64,000 nt of DNA from Escherichia coli (GTDB lineage Bacteria; Pseudomonadota; Gammaproteobacteria; Enterobacterales; Enterobacteriaceae), in assembly GCF_003334385.1 (NCBI RefSeq), contig NZ_QOWN01000020.1; one strand, 5' to 3'. Below the pieces are notes generated by a model, which saw nothing but the letters and a program-made list of their open reading frames with translations, searched no databases and was not told where the DNA came from. Positions 8,704 through 45,241 of this stretch are shown here, piece by piece. A program made the translations under genes and the position numbers. The first letter of the stretch is position 1, and each line of letters starts with the position of its first letter.

Positions 8704-9444
8704 ATGAATAACAACACCACGGCACCAACCTATACGCTGCGTGGCTTACAGTTGATTGGTTGGCGTGATATGCAGCACGCCCTCGATTATCTGTTTGCTG
8801 ACGGGCAGCTTAAGCAGGGAACGCTGGTTGCCATTAATGCTGAAAAAATGCTGACTATTGAAGATAACGCCGAGGTCAGGGAGTTAATTAACGCTGCCGA
8901 ATTTAAATATGCGGATGGCATCAGCGTTGTACGTTCAGTACGTAAAAAGTACCCGCAGGCGCAGGTTTCCCGCGTTGCCGGTGCCGATCTCTGGGAAGAG
9001 CTGATGGCGCGCGCAGGCAAAGAAGGGACGCCGGTATTTCTTGTGGGCGGTAAACCTGAAGTGCTGGCGCAAACTGAAGCTAAACTGCGCAACCAGTGGA
9101 ATGTGAATATCGTTGGCAGTCAGGATGGTTATTTTAAACCCGAGCAGCGTCAGGCGCTGTTTGAACGCATTCATGCCAGCGGTGCGCAAATCGTCACCGT
9201 TGCGATGGGATCGCCAAAGCAGGAGATCATCATGCGCGACTGCCGTCTGGTACATCCAGATGCGCTGTATATGGGCGTTGGCGGGACTTACGATGTTTTC
9301 ACCGGTCACGTAAAACGCGCACCGAAAATCTGGCAAACGCTGGGGCTGGAGTGGCTCTACCGCCTGCTTTCGCAGCCGAGCCGCATTAAGCGTCAGCTTC
9401 GTTTGCTGCGTTATTTACGCTGGCACTACACCGGCAACCTATGA
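8704..9444 (+). CDS. wecG: UDP-ManNAcA:lipid I transferase (WecB/TagA/CpsF family)
   Basis: 246-aa ORF immediately after wzyE; last gene of ECA operon. Confidence 0.92.
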
Positions 9445-16641: not shown

Positions 16642-17877
16642 TTATTCTCCTTGCGGCGCGGCTGCCGGAGTATCACCTTGCGGTGCAGGTGCAGGTGCAG
16701 GTGCAGGTGCAGGTGCAGGTGCAGGTGCAGGTGCAGGTGCAGGTGCAGGTTTAGCTTCCGTTGTCCCTGCTGCCGGTTGTGCCAGCAGGTTACGCACGCG
16801 AGTCTGCATCAGTTTTTCCAGCATCGCCTGGCTTTGCAGGGTTTCCGGAAGATCCATCGAGATATTTTGCTGGCTTAACTGGTCCACCTCGTCGAGGAAC
16901 GCTTTGGTGGTGGCATCATCAGTATCGTAGTAAGCACGTACCCAGGTGGAGACGTTCTCCAGCGCCTGGCGATAAGTCTCTTCCTGGTGACGCGGTACAG
17001 CTTGTGCTGCGACCAGCAGGCGAGAGCGAATATTTTCGCGCAGATAGATATCCTGATTTGGCGCTAACAGCGGTACGGCGGTGTCATCACGACGGCGAAT
17101 CGTAATGAAGTTGTCCATAAAGTTCTGCCAGCTTTTTTGCAGATTGATACGCCATTCGCTGATGGAACTGGAAAGCTCTTCACCGTCTGAATCCATCGGC
17201 GAACCATCGCTGTCATTATCGGCCAGACGCAGGTTATCTACCTGATTTGAAAGCTGATTAAGCTTAAGGATGATGCCGTCATAATCCACCTGCGATACTG
17301 CAGAAAGGCTGGCGATATCATCGGTAATTGCCCGACGAACGGTAATCAGACTCGGGTCATTCATATCCGCCAGGCTGGCGTCTGCACTTTTCAGCAACGC
17401 TGCAGCGGTCGTGACGTCCTGATCGCTCCACAGCTTCCGTCCGGCGAGTTTCACCAGAAAATCGGCCTGAGCCAGCAGCCAGGTTTTAGCATCGCTGCCG
17501 GAAATGGTGGCGACCTTTTGTTGGACCTCATCCAACTGTTTTGCCAGCGTTTCTTGCTGACGATTCGCCTGCTTAAGCTGTGCAGCTTGTTGCTTAATAA
17601 TGCCTTCCAGCTCGGCTTTTTGGCTCTCCTGGGCTTTTTGCAATGCCGTCAGTTGGTTAGCCAGGGCATCGCTGGTGGCGGTCTGATTGACGGCCTGTTG
17701 TTTACCCCAGCCATACAAACCGACGCCCGCCGCCAGAGCAATAGCGATAGCCACCGCGCTGAGAATCAATGCGGTATTGTTCTTACTCTTTTTTTCTGTT
17801 GCGACAGGTTGTGACGTGGTGTCCACGGCCTCCCTGGTCTCTTCAACCACGGCGGAGGTTTTTTCTTGTTCCGTCAT
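16642..17877 (-). CDS. hemX: HemX protein (inner membrane, coiled-coil, C-terminal Pro-Ala repeat)
   Basis: 411-aa ORF; TM segment near N-terminus, Q/A-rich coiled-coil, C-terminal (PA)11; synteny hemC-hemD-hemX-hemY. Confidence 0.9.
16685..16750. repeat. perfect hexanucleotide tandem repeat (GCAGGT)x11 inside hemX coding sequence
   Basis: Directly visible: 66 nt of uninterrupted GCAGGT units, encoding (Pro-Ala)11 on the minus strand. Confidence 0.98.
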
Positions 17878-18639: not shown

Positions 18640-19577
18640 GCCGGGGCGTCTCCGTTATAGACTTCAGCGAGGATCTCGCGCGCGCCGTTATTCAGTAGCT
18701 CTTCTGCCAGCGAAATCCCCATTTGTTCGGCATCTTGCGGCGCACCGCGGCGTTCACCGCGAATAATCTGCGAACCGTCCGGCGCGCCGACCAGCGCACG
18801 CAGCCAGATTTCGCCATCAATAAGCTCGGCGTAGCTACCAATTGGCACCTGACATCCGCCTTCGAGACGGGTATTCATGGCGCGTTCTGCGGTAACGCGC
18901 AGTGCAGTTTCGTGGTGATTCAGCGCGGCAAGCAGCTCGCGAGTGCGTGAATCATCAAGGCGGCATTCAATACCCACCGCACCTTGTCCTACCGCCGGAA
19001 GAGAAATCTCGGGTGGCAACGCGGCGCGAATACGTGACTCCAGACCTAAACGTTTTAGTCCGGCTACGGCAAGAATGATGGCATCGTATTCGCCGTTATC
19101 CAGTTTGCTCAGGCGAGTGCCGACGTTGCCGCGCAGGGAGCGGATAATCAGATCCGGACGGCGTTCAGCCAGTTGGCACTGGCGACGTAAACTGGACGTC
19201 CCGACGATACTGCCTGCCGGTAACGCATCCAGACTGTCATAGTTATTGGACACAAAGGCATCGCGAGGATCTTCACGCTCACAAATAGTGACCAGTCCCA
19301 GACCTTGCGGGAATTCAACCGGCACATCTTTCATTGAGTGTACGGCGATATCGGCGCGATTTTCGAGGAGCGCGACTTCCAGCTCTTTTACAAATAAGCC
19401 TTTTCCGCCTACTTTCGCCAGCGGCGTATCAAGAATCACATCGCCGCGCGTCACCATCGGTACCAGTTCAACGACCAGGCCCGGATGGCTCGCCATCAAC
19501 TTGTCTTTGACATAGTGTGCCTGCCAGAGTGCAAGTGGGCTTTGGCGTGTGGCAATTCTTAAAACATTGTCTAACAT
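18636..19577 (-). CDS. hemC: porphobilinogen deaminase (hydroxymethylbilane synthase)
   Basis: ORF trimmed to [20 protein letters not shown] start (313 aa); HMBS family. Confidence 0.93.
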
Positions 19578-19803
19578 GCTTGTTACCGTCATTATCATCC
19601 GTGGTCCATCCTAACATCCTTGCCAGAGTGATGTCAGTGTTGTGGTGAAACGTAGACGCCTGCGCAAACCGTAAAATGAGGTCTGGCAGTGGATCCTGAC
19701 AGGCGTTTCACGCCGTTGTAATAAGGAATTTACAGAGAATAAACGGTGCTACACTTGTATGTAGCGCATCTTTCTTTACGGTCAATCAGCAAGGTGTTAA
19801 ATT

Positions 19804-19819
19804 GATCACGTTTTAGACC
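19804..19819. promoter_or_regulatory. CRP-like half-site pair (TGTTA-N6-TCACG) in cyaA upstream region
   Basis: Sequence match only, one mismatch per half-site to TGTGA-N6-TCACA; about 150 bp upstream of cyaA start. Confidence 0.3.
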
Positions 19820-19963
19820 ATTTTTTCGTCGTGAAACTAAAAAAACCAGGCGCGAAAAGTGGTAACGGTTACCTTTGACATACGAAATATCCCGAATGCC
19901 GCGTGTTACCGTTGATGTTGGCGGAATCACAGTCATGACGGGTAGCAAATCAGGCGATACGTC

Positions 19964-22510
19964 TTGTACCTCTATATTGAGACTCTGAAACAGAGACTGG
20001 ATGCCATAAATCAATTGCGTGTGGATCGCGCGCTTGCTGCTATGGGGCCTGCATTCCAACAGGTCTACAGTCTACTGCCGACATTGTTGCACTATCACCA
20101 TCCGCTAATGCCGGGTTACCTTGATGGTAACGTTCCCAAAGGCATTTGCCTTTACACGCCTGATGAAACTCAACGCCACTACCTGAACGAGCTTGAACTG
20201 TATCGTGGAATGTCAGTACAGGATCCGCCGAAAGGTGAGCTTCCAATTACTGGTGTATACACCATGGGCAGCACCTCGTCCGTAGGGCAAAGTTGTTCCT
20301 CTGACCTGGATATCTGGGTCTGTCATCAATCCTGGCTCGATAGCGAAGAGCGCCAATTGCTACAACGTAAATGTAGCCTGCTGGAAAACTGGGCCGCCTC
20401 GCTGGGTGTGGAAGTCAGCTTCTTCCTGATTGATGAAAACCGCTTCCGTCATAATGAAAGCGGCAGCCTGGGGGGCGAAGATTGTGGCTCCACCCAGCAT
20501 ATACTGCTGCTTGACGAATTTTATCGTACCGCCGTGCGTCTCGCCGGTAAGCGTATTCTGTGGAATATGGTGCCGTGCGACGAAGAAGAGCATTACGACG
20601 ACTATGTGATGACGCTTTACGCGCAGGGCGTGCTGACGCCAAATGAATGGCTGGATCTCGGTGGCTTAAGCTCGCTTTCTGCTGAAGAGTACTTTGGTGC
20701 CAGCCTTTGGCAGCTCTACAAGAGTATCGATTCCCCATACAAAGCGGTACTGAAAACACTGCTGCTGGAAGCCTATTCCTGGGAATACCCGAACCCACGT
20801 CTGCTGGCGAAAGATATCAAACAGCGTTTGCACGACGGCGAGATTGTATCGTTTGGTCTCGATCCATACTGCATGATGCTGGAGCGTGTTACTGAATACC
20901 TGACGGCGATTGAAGATTTTACCCGTCTGGATTTAGTACGTCGCTGCTTCTATTTAAAAGTGTGCGAAAAGCTCAGCCGTGAACGCGCCTGCGTAGGCTG
21001 GCGTCGCGCAGTGTTGAGCCAGTTAGTGAGCGAGTGGGGTTGGGACGAAGCTCGTCTGGCAATGCTCGATAACCGCGCTAACTGGAAGATTGATCAGGTG
21101 CGTGAGGCGCACAACGAGTTGCTCGACGCGATGATGCAGAGCTACCGTAATCTGATCCGCTTTGCGCGTCGCAATAACCTTAGCGTCTCCGCCAGTCCGC
21201 AGGATATCGGCGTGCTGACGCGTAAGCTGTATGCCGCGTTTGAAGCATTACCAGGTAAAGTGACGCTGGTAAACCCGCAGATTTCACCCGATCTCTCGGA
21301 ACCGAATCTGACCTTTATTTATGTGCCGCCGGGCCGGGCTAACCGTTCAGGTTGGTATCTGTATAACCGCGCGCCAAATATTGAGTCGATCATCAGCCAT
21401 CAGCCGCTGGAATATAACCGTTACCTGAATAAACTGGTGGCGTGGGCATGGTTTAACGGCCTGCTGACCTCGCGCACCCGTTTGTATATTAAAGGTAACG
21501 GCATTGTCGATTTGCCTAAGTTGCAGGAGATGGTCGCCGACGTGTCGCACCATTTCCCGCTGCGCTTACCTGCACCGACACCGAAGGCGCTCTACAGCCC
21601 GTGTGAGATCCGCCATCTGGCGATTATCGTTAACCTGGAATATGACCCGACAGCGGCGTTCCGCAATCAGGTGGTGCATTTCGATTTCCGTAAGCTGGAT
21701 GTCTTCAGCTTTGGCGAGAATCAAAATTGCCTGGTAGGTAGCGTTGACCTGCTGTACCGCAACTCGTGGAACGAAGTGCGTACGCTGCACTTCAACGGCG
21801 AGCAATCGATGATCGAAGCCCTGAAAACTATTCTCGGCAAAATGCATCAGGACGCCGCACCGCCAGATAGCGTGGAAGTCTTCTGTTATAGCCAGCATCT
21901 GCGCGGCTTAATTCGTACTCGCGTGCAGCAACTGGTTTCTGAGTGTATTGAATTGCGTCTTTCCAGCACCCGCCAGGAAACCGGGCGTTTCAAGGCGCTG
22001 CGCGTTTCTGGTCAAACCTGGGGGTTGTTCTTCGAACGCCTGAATGTATCGGTACAGAAACTGGAAAACGCCATCGAGTTTTATGGCGCGATTTCGCATA
22101 ACAAACTGCACGGCCTGTCAGTGCAGGTTGAAACCAATCACGTCAAATTACCGGCGGTGGTGGACGGCTTTGCCAGCGAAGGGATCATCCAGTTCTTTTT
22201 CGAAGAAACGCAAGACGAGAATGGCTTTAATATCTACATTCTCGACGAAAGCAACCGGGTTGAGGTATATCACCACTGCGAAGGCAGCAAAGAGGAGCTG
22301 GTACGTGACGTCAGTCGCTTCTACTCGTCATCGCATGACCGTTTTACCTACGGCTCAAGCTTCATCAACTTCAACCTGCCGCAGTTCTATCAGATTGTGA
22401 AGGTTGATGGTCGTGAACAGGTGATTCCGTTCCGCACAAAATCTATCGGTAACATGCCGCCTGCCAATCAGGATCACGATACGCCGCTATTACAGCAATA
22501 TTTTTCGTGA
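19964..22510 (+). CDS. cyaA: adenylate cyclase (class I)
   Basis: 848-aa ORF beginning at TTG (19964-19966), N-terminus [23 protein letters not shown]. Confidence 0.95.
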
Positions 22511-44980: not shown

Positions 44981-45241
44981 GGTATTCTCCGTACCCTTAT
45001 AAAAATGTTGCGCAATGTTAACTATAGTCAGCATGCAACAAATCACATTGCCTGAATCGGCTCATCTTTTATGCAGTCCTGCAGAATGAAGAGTGATTTA
45101 TGTGATTTGAATCACTTTTGGTGGGTAAATTTATGCAACGCATTTGCGTCATGGTGATGAGTATCACGAAAAAATGTTAAACCCTTCGGTAAAGTGTCTT
45201 TTTGCTTCTTCTGACTAAACCGATTCACAGAGGAGTTGTAT

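What the first reader, a model, noticed from the sequence alone, without database searches (positions are those of the whole stretch)
19599..19966. cyaA control region: TTG initiation codon and a CRP-like site
cyaA begins with TTG at 19964 (translation MYLYIETLK...), a weak start codon consistent with low-level translation of adenylate cyclase. A TTGACA hexamer at 19875-19880 is a plausible -35 for a cyaA promoter, and a CRP-like half-site pair (TGTTA-N6-TCACG, 19804-19819) lies upstream, which would fit known cAMP-CRP feedback on cyaA. The site assignment is by motif only.
Basis: partly seen in the sequence, partly recalled or inferred. Interest (0 to 1): 0.2.

Follow-up and report, generated by a model that had tools for sequence, protein, structure and literature searches.

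The report
Known cyaA promoter, CRP operator, TTG start
This is the well-studied control region of the E. coli adenylate cyclase gene: a weak TTG start codon and a cAMP-CRP repressor site lying on top of the main promoter.

Summary
The window is E. coli chromosome and 19578-19963 is the hemC-cyaA intergenic region.

- **TTG start:** TTG at 19964 is the RefSeq cyaA start. It is kept in 77 of 77 Enterobacteriaceae loci, and published mutagenesis shows it limits translation.
- **CRP motif:** TGTTA-N6-TCACG is real but lies at 19795-19810, not 19804-19819.
  - It scores 11.15 bits on a PWM built from 104 other ChIP-seq CRP sites. That is rank 4 in 64 kb, with 0.02 expected by chance in the intergenic region.
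  - It is the motif assigned to the hemC/cyaA CRP ChIP-seq peak in ETEC.
  - It is 99% conserved across 73 distinct intergenic regions, against 61% for the region as a whole.
  - It overlaps an invariant promoter-like TTTACG-17-TGnTAAATT, which fits repression by occlusion, the known cAMP-CRP feedback.
- **TTGACA:** the hexamer at 19875-19880 exists but has no -10 partner at any spacing from 14 to 20. Most genera carry TTGAAA instead. It is not supported as a promoter.
- **Second CRP-like motif:** 19916-19931 is not conserved and is probably chance.

Verdict: already known, low interest.

The parts
19964..22510 (+). cyaA coding sequence (class I adenylate cyclase, 848 aa), including the stop codon
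   Evidence: ORF listed. RefSeq annotation. NCBIfam equivalog NF006977 scores 2048 bits against a cutoff of 1761, aligned 1-848 to 1-848.
19964..19966 (+). TTG (UUG) initiation codon of cyaA
   Evidence: It is the annotated start. TTG is present in 77 of 77 Enterobacteriaceae loci. An in-frame TAG lies 21 nt upstream in this window, and no alternative start is shared across genera. Codons 2-26 vary at codon positions 1/2/3 in the ratio 3/0/17, and all 63 distinct sequences encode the same peptide. Mutagenesis data are cited in PMC5499595.
19949..19963 (+). Translation initiation region ATCAGGCGATACGTC, with a weak Shine-Dalgarno (AGG at 19952-19954, 9 nt before TTG)
   Evidence: It is near-invariant in all loci. 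The only common variation is C or T at 19959. Calling AGG the SD is inference from sequence.
19795..19810 (.). CRP-binding site core TGTTAAATTGATCACG (22-mer 19792-19813), the operator for cAMP-CRP repression of cyaA
   Evidence: Single exact match. PWM score 11.15 bits, rank 4 in the window. Its reverse complement CGTGATCAATTTAACA is the motif under the hemC/cyaA CRP ChIP-seq peak in ETEC H10407, within about 25 bp of the locally calibrated peak centre. Mean identity 0.99 across 73 distinct intergenic regions.
19775..19780 (+). Candidate -35 hexamer TTTACG of the main cyaA promoter (P2)
   Evidence: Identical in 72 of 73 distinct intergenic regions. It lies 17 bp from the -10 candidate. The assignment to P2 is inferred from sequence and from memory of Aiba 1985 and Fandl et al. 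1990. No transcription start data could be retrieved.
19795..19803 (+). Candidate extended -10, TGtTAAATT (-10 hexamer 19798-19803), lying inside the left half of the CRP site
   Evidence: TAAATT or TAGATT at a 17-bp spacer in 73 of 73 intergenic regions. The sequence is read directly. PMC3050693 states that in Y. pestis CRP binds a region overlapping the cyaA -10.
19858..19884 (+). Function unknown; not a recognisable promoter.
   Evidence: The hexamer has identity 0.81, and most genera have TTGAAA. There is no -10 partner in this window (best 2 of 6) or in 64 of 73 intergenic regions.
19578..19963 (.). hemC-cyaA divergent intergenic region (386 bp)
   Evidence: The annotated hemC start is at 19577 on the minus strand and the cyaA start is at 19964.

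Best explanation
This is the known control region of E. coli cyaA, and expression is held low at two levels.

(1) Transcription. The main promoter is read here as TTTACG (19775-19780), a 17-bp spacer, then the extended -10 TGtTAAATT (19795-19803). It is overlapped by a CRP site, TGTTAAATTGATCACG (19795-19810). The left half-site contains the extended -10 TG and the first bases of the -10 hexamer. The right half-site covers roughly -4 to +1. When cAMP is high, cAMP-CRP occupies the site and excludes RNA polymerase, which closes a negative feedback loop on cAMP synthesis.

(2) Translation. The roughly 150-nt leader ends in a weak Shine-Dalgarno (AGG) and a UUG start codon, which gives several-fold less protein than AUG would.

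Shown here or in papers read here: CRP occupies this locus in vivo, with this motif under the peak. The motif scores like a real CRP site. The promoter-like elements, the CRP site and the TTG are deeply conserved. The UUG lowers translation. CRP represses cyaA.

Inferred: the exact transcription start (about 19810) and the occlusion mechanism.

The TTGACA at 19875 lies inside the leader and is not a promoter element.
For: - Identity of the locus: the region matches all 5426 of 5426 complete E. coli genomes, under annotated hemC and cyaA.
- CRP site: unique motif, 11.15 bits, rank 4 of 64 kb. The other three of the top four hits are also ChIP-seq CRP sites.
- The ChIP-seq table lists CGTGATCAATTTAACA for hemC/cyaA. 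The reported peak centres are offset by 160-215 bp at all three neighbouring loci, so the motif falls within about 25 bp of the calibrated peak.
- Conservation is 0.99 for the CRP 16-mer, 1.00 for TTTACG and 0.96 for TAAATT, against 0.61 for the whole intergenic region. The TTTACG-17-TA[A/G]ATT pair is present in 73 of 73.
- The literature states that CRP represses cyaA in E. coli (Aiba 1985, cited in PMC3050693 and PMC5544767). It also states that in Y. pestis CRP binds a region overlapping the cyaA -10.
- UUG start: 77 of 77 loci, the codon-position pattern and the in-frame stop, and the 1:2:6 UUG:GUG:AUG expression ratio.
Against: - No mapped transcription start or DNase footprint for E. 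coli could be retrieved. The original papers (Roy 1983; Aiba 1984, 1985; Thorner and Fandl 1990; Reddy 1985) are not held. Genome-wide start-site supplements were truncated or absent. The P2 position therefore rests on sequence, conservation and my memory of those papers.
- The promoter candidate is only 4 of 6 plus 4 of 6 matches, and the consensus scan did not list it.
- The whole block 19743-19830 is conserved, so conservation alone does not single out the CRP site from the promoter.
- The site scores at only the 28th percentile of ChIP-seq sites.
Confidence: 0.9

Rival explanations
1. One reading: TTGACA at 19875-19880 is the -35 of a functional cyaA promoter, with transcription starting near 19910. 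The CRP site about 70 bp upstream would then regulate that promoter from a distance.
For: - A perfect TTGACA is rare in this window: 7 against about 33 expected.
- The hexamer sits in a semi-conserved block, and TTGACA or TTGAAA is present in 53 of 73 intergenic regions.
- From memory, Salmonella retains about 20% cAMP-insensitive cya expression after P2 is deleted, so minor promoters do exist somewhere.
Against: - No -10-like hexamer is found at spacers 14-20; the best matches 2 of 6. The promoter scan does not list it.
- 64 of 73 related regions also lack a partner, and the sequence downstream (19885-19945) is the least conserved part of the region.
- The CRP centre would lie at about -107 from such a start, which is not a standard activating or repressing position. 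The CRP site instead coincides exactly with another, invariant promoter-like element.
Confidence: 0.05
2. The CRP site serves the divergent hemCDXY operon, acting as an upstream activator or repressor, rather than cyaA.
For: The ChIP-seq table assigns the peak to 'hemC/cyaA' without choosing between them. The site lies in a shared divergent intergenic region.
Against: - The only hemC-directed promoter-like element, CTGACA-18-TAGGAT with TG at 19637 to 19608, is also the conserved hemC-proximal block. It puts the CRP centre about 200 bp upstream of the hemC start, outside class I and class II distances.
- The site coincides base for base with a cyaA-directed -10.
- The literature attributes CRP control to cyaA.
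Confidence: 0.03
3. The similarity to a CRP site is incidental. The 19792-19813 stretch would then be conserved only because it is the core promoter and start region, and CRP feedback would act elsewhere or indirectly.
For: - The whole block 19743-19830 is conserved, not just the CRP motif.
- The left half-site TGTTA departs from TGTGA.
- The PWM score is in the lower third of real sites.
Against: - In vivo CRP ChIP-seq gives a peak with this motif.
- The other top PWM hits in the window are all bona fide CRP sites, so 11 bits is discriminating here.
- The right half-site TCACG lies at about -4 to +1, where promoter constraint is weak, yet it is invariant.
- From memory, Salmonella 4-bp insertion and deletion mutants in this site lost cAMP repression (Fandl et al. 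1990).
Confidence: 0.02

Closest known systems
E. coli cya (cyaA) P2 promoter with overlapping cAMP-CRP operator (Aiba 1985; Mori & Aiba 1985; Salmonella homologue Fandl/Thorner/Artz 1990)
   Same: It is the same locus, since the window is E. coli. The CRP motif is the one listed under the hemC/cyaA ChIP-seq peak. CRP acts as a repressor whose site overlaps the core promoter. From memory, the 105-bp 'ecocya' entry of the classical CRP-site training set is this very sequence, with AGGTGTTAAATTGATCACGTTTT as the site.
   Different: Nothing differs in sequence.
UUG-initiated cyaA translation (Roy et al. 1983; Reddy, Peterkofsky & McKenney 1985)
   Same: TTG at the annotated start. Expression rises about 2-fold with GUG and 6-fold with AUG. 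The UUG is reported as conserved in Enterobacterales and other gammaproteobacteria and is confirmed here in 77 of 77 loci.
   Different: None.
Other CRP-repressed promoters where the site overlaps or follows the core promoter (for example crp autoregulation through a downstream site)
   Same: CRP acts negatively because of where the site lies relative to the promoter, not because of a special motif (background text of PMC3050693).
   Different: According to PMC3050693, the repressing CRP site at crp lies about 40 bp downstream of the transcription start. Here the site covers the -10 and start region itself.

Membership tests
CRP (cAMP receptor protein) DNA-binding site | Sequence match to the 16-bp core TGTGA-N6-TCACA at a score typical of experimentally bound sites | tested here: met
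   A PWM built from 104 other ETEC ChIP-seq sites gives 11.15 bits, the 28th percentile of real sites. This is rank 4 of 63,985 positions, with 0.023 expected by chance in the intergenic region.
CRP (cAMP receptor protein) DNA-binding site | Occupancy by CRP in vivo | tested here: met
   Table 1 of PMC4287617 lists a high-confidence CRP ChIP-seq peak for hemC/cyaA with the motif CGTGATCAATTTAACA, the reverse complement of 19795-19810. The motif lies within about 25 bp of the peak once the paper's local coordinate offset is calibrated on the neighbouring rffM and udp peaks. The strain is ETEC H10407, not the window's strain, but the motif sequence is identical.
CRP (cAMP receptor protein) DNA-binding site | In vitro cAMP-dependent footprint, and loss of regulation when the site is mutated | not testable with these tools
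   I recall this being reported by Aiba 1985 (E. coli) and Fandl et al. 1990 (Salmonella). Those papers are not held.
CRP (cAMP receptor protein) DNA-binding site | Conservation of both half-sites in orthologous regions | tested here: met
   Mean identity is 0.99 over the 16-mer in 73 distinct Enterobacteriaceae intergenic regions, against 0.61 for the whole region. The only recurrent change is A to G in the N6 spacer.
Sigma-70 promoter with TTGACA (19875-19880) as its -35 | -35 hexamer close to TTGACA | tested here: met
   Perfect match at 19875-19880.
Sigma-70 promoter with TTGACA (19875-19880) as its -35 | -10 hexamer (TATAAT-like, with A at position 2 and T at position 6) 15-19 bp downstream | tested here: not met
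   Hexamers at spacers 14-20 match TATAAT in 0-2 of 6 positions. The promoter scan does not report the site. 64 of 73 orthologous regions also lack a partner.
Sigma-70 promoter with TTGACA (19875-19880) as its -35 | Mapped transcription start about 7 bp after the -10 | not testable with these tools
   No start-site dataset covering this locus could be read.
Sigma-70 promoter P2 (TTTACG-17-TGnTAAATT, 19775-19803) | -35 and -10 hexamers at a 16-18 bp spacing | tested here: inconclusive
   4 of 6 plus 4 of 6 matches with a 17-bp spacer, T1, A2 and T6 in the -10, and an extended -10 TG. This is below the scan's threshold of 9 of 12. The pair is nevertheless invariant in 73 of 73 orthologous regions.
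Sigma-70 promoter P2 (TTTACG-17-TGnTAAATT, 19775-19803) | Mapped, cAMP-repressible transcription start | not testable with these tools
   The original S1 mapping and in vitro transcription papers are not held. Only secondary statements were found.
Non-AUG (UUG) translation initiation | Start codon TTG at the true N-terminus, with no in-frame AUG or GUG alternative | tested here: met
   An in-frame TAG lies 21 nt upstream, and no start codon occurs between it and the TTG in this window. The NCBIfam equivalog aligns from residue 1. TTG is present in 77 of 77 loci, with third-position-dominated variation from codon 2 onward.
Non-AUG (UUG) translation initiation | Experimental demonstration that the UUG is used and limits expression | not testable with these tools
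   Not testable here directly. PMC5499595 reports the Reddy et al. 1985 result, UUG:GUG:AUG = 1:2:6.
Class I adenylate cyclase (CyaA) | Full-length match to the curated equivalog model above its cutoff | tested here: met
   NF006977 scores 2048.3 bits against a cutoff of 1761, aligned 1-848 of 848.

The most novel reading that the evidence does not exclude
Two conserved pieces of the region are not explained by the known P2, CRP and UUG picture. The other is the conserved palindrome GCTACA-N6-TGTAGC (19748-19765), just upstream of the P2 -35. One or both could be an uncharacterised cis-regulatory element of cyaA. Possibilities are an operator for a second regulator, a minor cAMP-independent promoter element, or an RNA-level signal in the leader.
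Probability: 0.2. Interest if true: 0.3.

Novelty: already known. Interest (0 to 1): 0.05.

Why it matters
Negative feedback of cAMP-CRP on adenylate cyclase synthesis, together with a deliberately weak UUG start, keeps CyaA scarce and cAMP signalling stable. It is a classic example of repression by CRP and of non-AUG initiation. Nothing here changes that picture. The value of this check is to correct the site coordinates, to remove an unsupported promoter call, and to show that the promoter-operator-start codon arrangement is essentially invariant across about 27 genera of Enterobacteriaceae.

Tried and rejected
1. Original papers. Roy 1983, Aiba 1984, Thorner 1990, Reddy 1985 and Zhang 2013 are not held. 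Full-text searches for the site sequence or for 'cya P2' found nothing useful.
2. Genome-wide transcription start tables. The Kim 2012, Ettwiller 2016, Yan 2018 and Conway 2014 supplements are truncated or absent, and Thomason 2015 is not held. No experimental start site could be placed on the window.
3. PredCRP supplement. It contains no cyaA entry.
4. Second CRP-like motif, TGTTGGCGGAATCACA at 19916-19931. It scores 8.76 bits at rank 15, but has only 0.16 identity across genera. It is rejected as chance.
5. Structured RNA in the leader. There is no Rfam hit at E <= 1. The fold of 19810-19999 is no more stable than shuffles (z = -0.43). The 19885-19945 stretch is full of indels.
6. TTGACA as a sigma-32 or sigma-28 type element. 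This was considered by eye and the spacings do not fit. It was not pursued.
7. An E. coli-only promoter-like pair, CTGACA-15-TGTAAT at 19696-19722, which resembles an entry in Shimada 2014. It is not conserved outside Escherichia, and its role is left open.

Full report
**What the region is.** A 651-bp query around the finding matches all 5426 complete E. coli genomes, 4737 of them at 99% identity or more, under annotated hemC and cyaA. In a RefSeq record with 100% identity, hemC on the minus strand starts at window 19577 and cyaA on the plus strand starts at 19964. The finding's span of 19599-19966 therefore lies within the 386-bp divergent hemC-cyaA intergenic region (19578-19963) and ends on the cyaA start codon. 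The 848-aa product is a full-length class I adenylate cyclase: NCBIfam equivalog NF006977 scores 2048 bits against a cutoff of 1761, aligned 1-848.

**Checking the observation.**
- The half-site pair TGTTA-N6-TCACG occurs exactly once in the window, at 19795-19810. That is 9 nt upstream of the stated 19804-19819.

**Is the CRP-like motif more than chance?**
- A loose consensus search, TGTGA-N6-TCACA with up to 2 mismatches, is not informative: it finds 12 hits against 24.6 expected.
- I therefore built a symmetric PWM from 104 other CRP sites in the ETEC H10407 ChIP-seq table of PMC4287617. The cyaA site and the two udp sites in this window were left out.
- The cyaA motif scores 11.15 bits. 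That is rank 4 of 63,985 positions and higher than 28% of the real sites. A score this high is expected 0.023 times in a 386-bp region.
- The three higher-scoring positions in the window are also listed ChIP-seq sites. They are 45101 and 45153 upstream of udp, and 8764 at the wzyE/wecG (rffM) junction. One caveat applies: the 8764 site was in the training set.

**Experimental support from papers read here.**
- Table 1 of PMC4287617 gives CGTGATCAATTTAACA as the motif under a high-confidence CRP peak assigned to hemC/cyaA. This is the reverse complement of 19795-19810.
- In the H10407 RefSeq record the motif centre is 209.5 bp from the printed peak centre. The neighbouring rffM and udp motifs show the same shift, 182.5 bp and 163.5/215.5 bp. 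The offset is therefore systematic, and the cyaA motif lies within about 25 bp of the calibrated peak.
- PMC3050693 and PMC5544767 state, citing Aiba 1985, that cAMP-CRP represses cyaA in E. coli. The former adds that in Y. pestis CRP binds a region overlapping the cyaA -10.

**Comparative evidence.** A scan of species-representative genomes returned 80 Enterobacteriaceae loci covering about 27 genera. I aligned 74 hemC-cyaA intergenic regions, of which 73 were distinct.
- Mean identity to the window is 0.61 overall.
- It is 0.99 for the CRP 16-mer, 1.00 for TTTACG (19775-19780) and 0.96 for TAAATT (19798-19803). All three sit within a conserved block at 19743-19830.
- The pair TTTACG-17-TA[A/G]ATT is present in 73 of 73 regions.
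- In the window the -10 candidate is preceded by TGt, an extended -10. That TG and the first bases of the -10 form the left CRP half-site TGTTA. The right half-site TCACG would lie at about -4 to +1.
- This geometry explains repression by promoter occlusion. It agrees with my recollection of the mapped P2 promoter and its CRP footprint (Aiba 1985), and of the Salmonella mutants in which 4-bp changes in this site abolished cAMP repression (Fandl et al. 1990). I could not retrieve those papers, so the start-site position is inferred.

**The TTGACA hexamer.**
- Perfect TTGACA is depleted in the window, 7 against 32.8 +/- 5.3 expected, so its presence is mildly notable.
- However, no hexamer at spacers 14-20 downstream matches TATAAT in more than 2 of 6 positions. 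The promoter scan ignores it.
- Across genera the hexamer is mostly TTGAAA (35 regions, against 18 with TTGACA), and 64 of 73 regions have no -10 partner. The sequence downstream (19885-19945) is the most variable, indel-rich part of the region.
- It lies about 65 nt inside the transcript predicted from P2. I conclude that it is not a promoter -35.
- It does belong to a semi-conserved block, GGTrACGGTT...TTGAmATAC (19858-19884), whose function I cannot assign.

**The TTG start.**
- TTG is present at the aligned start in 77 of 77 loci, preceded by the near-invariant ATCAGGCGATAYGTC.
- In the window an in-frame TAG lies 21 nt upstream, with no start codon between it and the TTG.
- Across 63 distinct sequences the first 30 residues are identical. 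Variable sites in codons 2-26 fall 3/0/17 by codon position, which shows that these codons are translated.
- PMC5499595 reports, from Reddy et al. 1985, that UUG:GUG:AUG at this position give adenylate cyclase at 1:2:6. It also notes that the UUG is phylogenetically conserved.
- The only SD-like element is AGG, 9 nt upstream (inference from sequence).

**Things that led nowhere.**
- No Rfam family matches 19400-20200 at E <= 1.
- The predicted leader RNA (19810-19999) folds no better than shuffled sequence, z = -0.43.
- A second CRP-like motif at 19916-19931 (8.76 bits) is unconserved, with identity 0.16, and is probably chance.
- Genome-wide start-site supplements were truncated or not held.

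**Verdict.**
It is wrong about TTGACA as the promoter and about the site lying 'upstream' of the promoter: the site lies on the promoter.
- All of this is established E. coli biology from 1983-1990. Novelty: already known. Interest: about 0.05.
- The only open points are two conserved but unexplained elements, the palindrome at 19748-19765 and the leader block at 19858-19884.

Noticed in passing
window 19916-19931: A second CRP-like motif, TGTTGGCGGAATCACA, lies in the cyaA leader 33-48 nt before the TTG. It scores 8.76 bits at rank 15 in the window. Identity across 73 related intergenic regions is only 0.16, so it is probably a chance match.
   Followed up: yes
window 19746-19767: A conserved palindrome, GCTACA-N6-TGTAGC, lies just upstream of the P2 -35. 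The scan flags it as terminator-like on both strands. Identity is 0.93, and Cedecea carries a two-sided change, CTACC...GGTAG. It could be a protein-binding site or a hairpin in transcripts from an upstream promoter. Its function is unknown.
   Followed up: partly
window 19729-19755: A promoter-like pair, TTTACA-15-TACACT, points toward cyaA and is conserved in 66 of 73 intergenic regions. It may be one of the minor upstream cya promoters. The 15-bp spacer is short, and no start-site data were available.
   Followed up: partly
window 19858-19884: A semi-conserved leader block, AGTGGTAACGGTTACCTTTGACATACG. In E. coli it contains a 13-bp palindrome, GGTAAC-G-GTTACC, followed by the TTGACA. The palindrome is only partly kept in other genera. 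No function is assigned.
   Followed up: partly
window 19578-19637 (minus strand): The hemC-proximal 60 bp is highly conserved. It holds a hemC-directed promoter-like CTGACA-18-TAGGAT with an extended -10 TG, at 19637 to 19608. The longest hemC ORF starts at ATG 19598 (320 aa), but RefSeq annotates ATG 19577 (313 aa).
   Followed up: partly
window 19935-19988: A 17-codon ORF ([17 protein letters not shown]) overlaps the cyaA TTG and is out of frame with it. It is present only in the Escherichia loci. In Salmonella and Citrobacter the same ATG lies 30 nt upstream and in frame with cyaA. In about 35 other loci, GATATGTCTTG creates an out-of-frame ATG at -5. These could modulate initiation at the UUG. 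This was not tested.
   Followed up: partly
window 45101-45116 and 45153-45168; 8764-8779: The three best CRP PWM hits in the window are the two sites upstream of udp (16.2 and 12.9 bits) and one at the wzyE/wecG junction (11.9 bits; this one was in the training set). All three are listed as CRP ChIP-seq sites in ETEC.
   Followed up: yes
PMC4287617 Table 1 vs NC_017633.1 (loci L083, L084): The printed ChIP-seq 'peak centre' coordinates are 160-215 bp lower than the motif positions in the RefSeq H10407 record at all three loci checked. This is a systematic offset to keep in mind when reusing that table.
   Followed up: yes
whole window: The perfect -35 hexamer TTGACA is about 5-fold depleted: 7 occurrences on both strands against 32.8 +/- 5.3 in shuffles. 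Only two lie on the plus strand, at 19507 and 19875. This is consistent with selection against spurious promoter elements.
   Followed up: no
window 16642-17877 (minus strand): The hemX ORF ends in a long (Pro-Ala)n repeat, about 13 PA units. The gene has different annotated lengths in ER1709 (called frameshifted) and in H10407, which suggests a repeat-length polymorphism.
   Followed up: no
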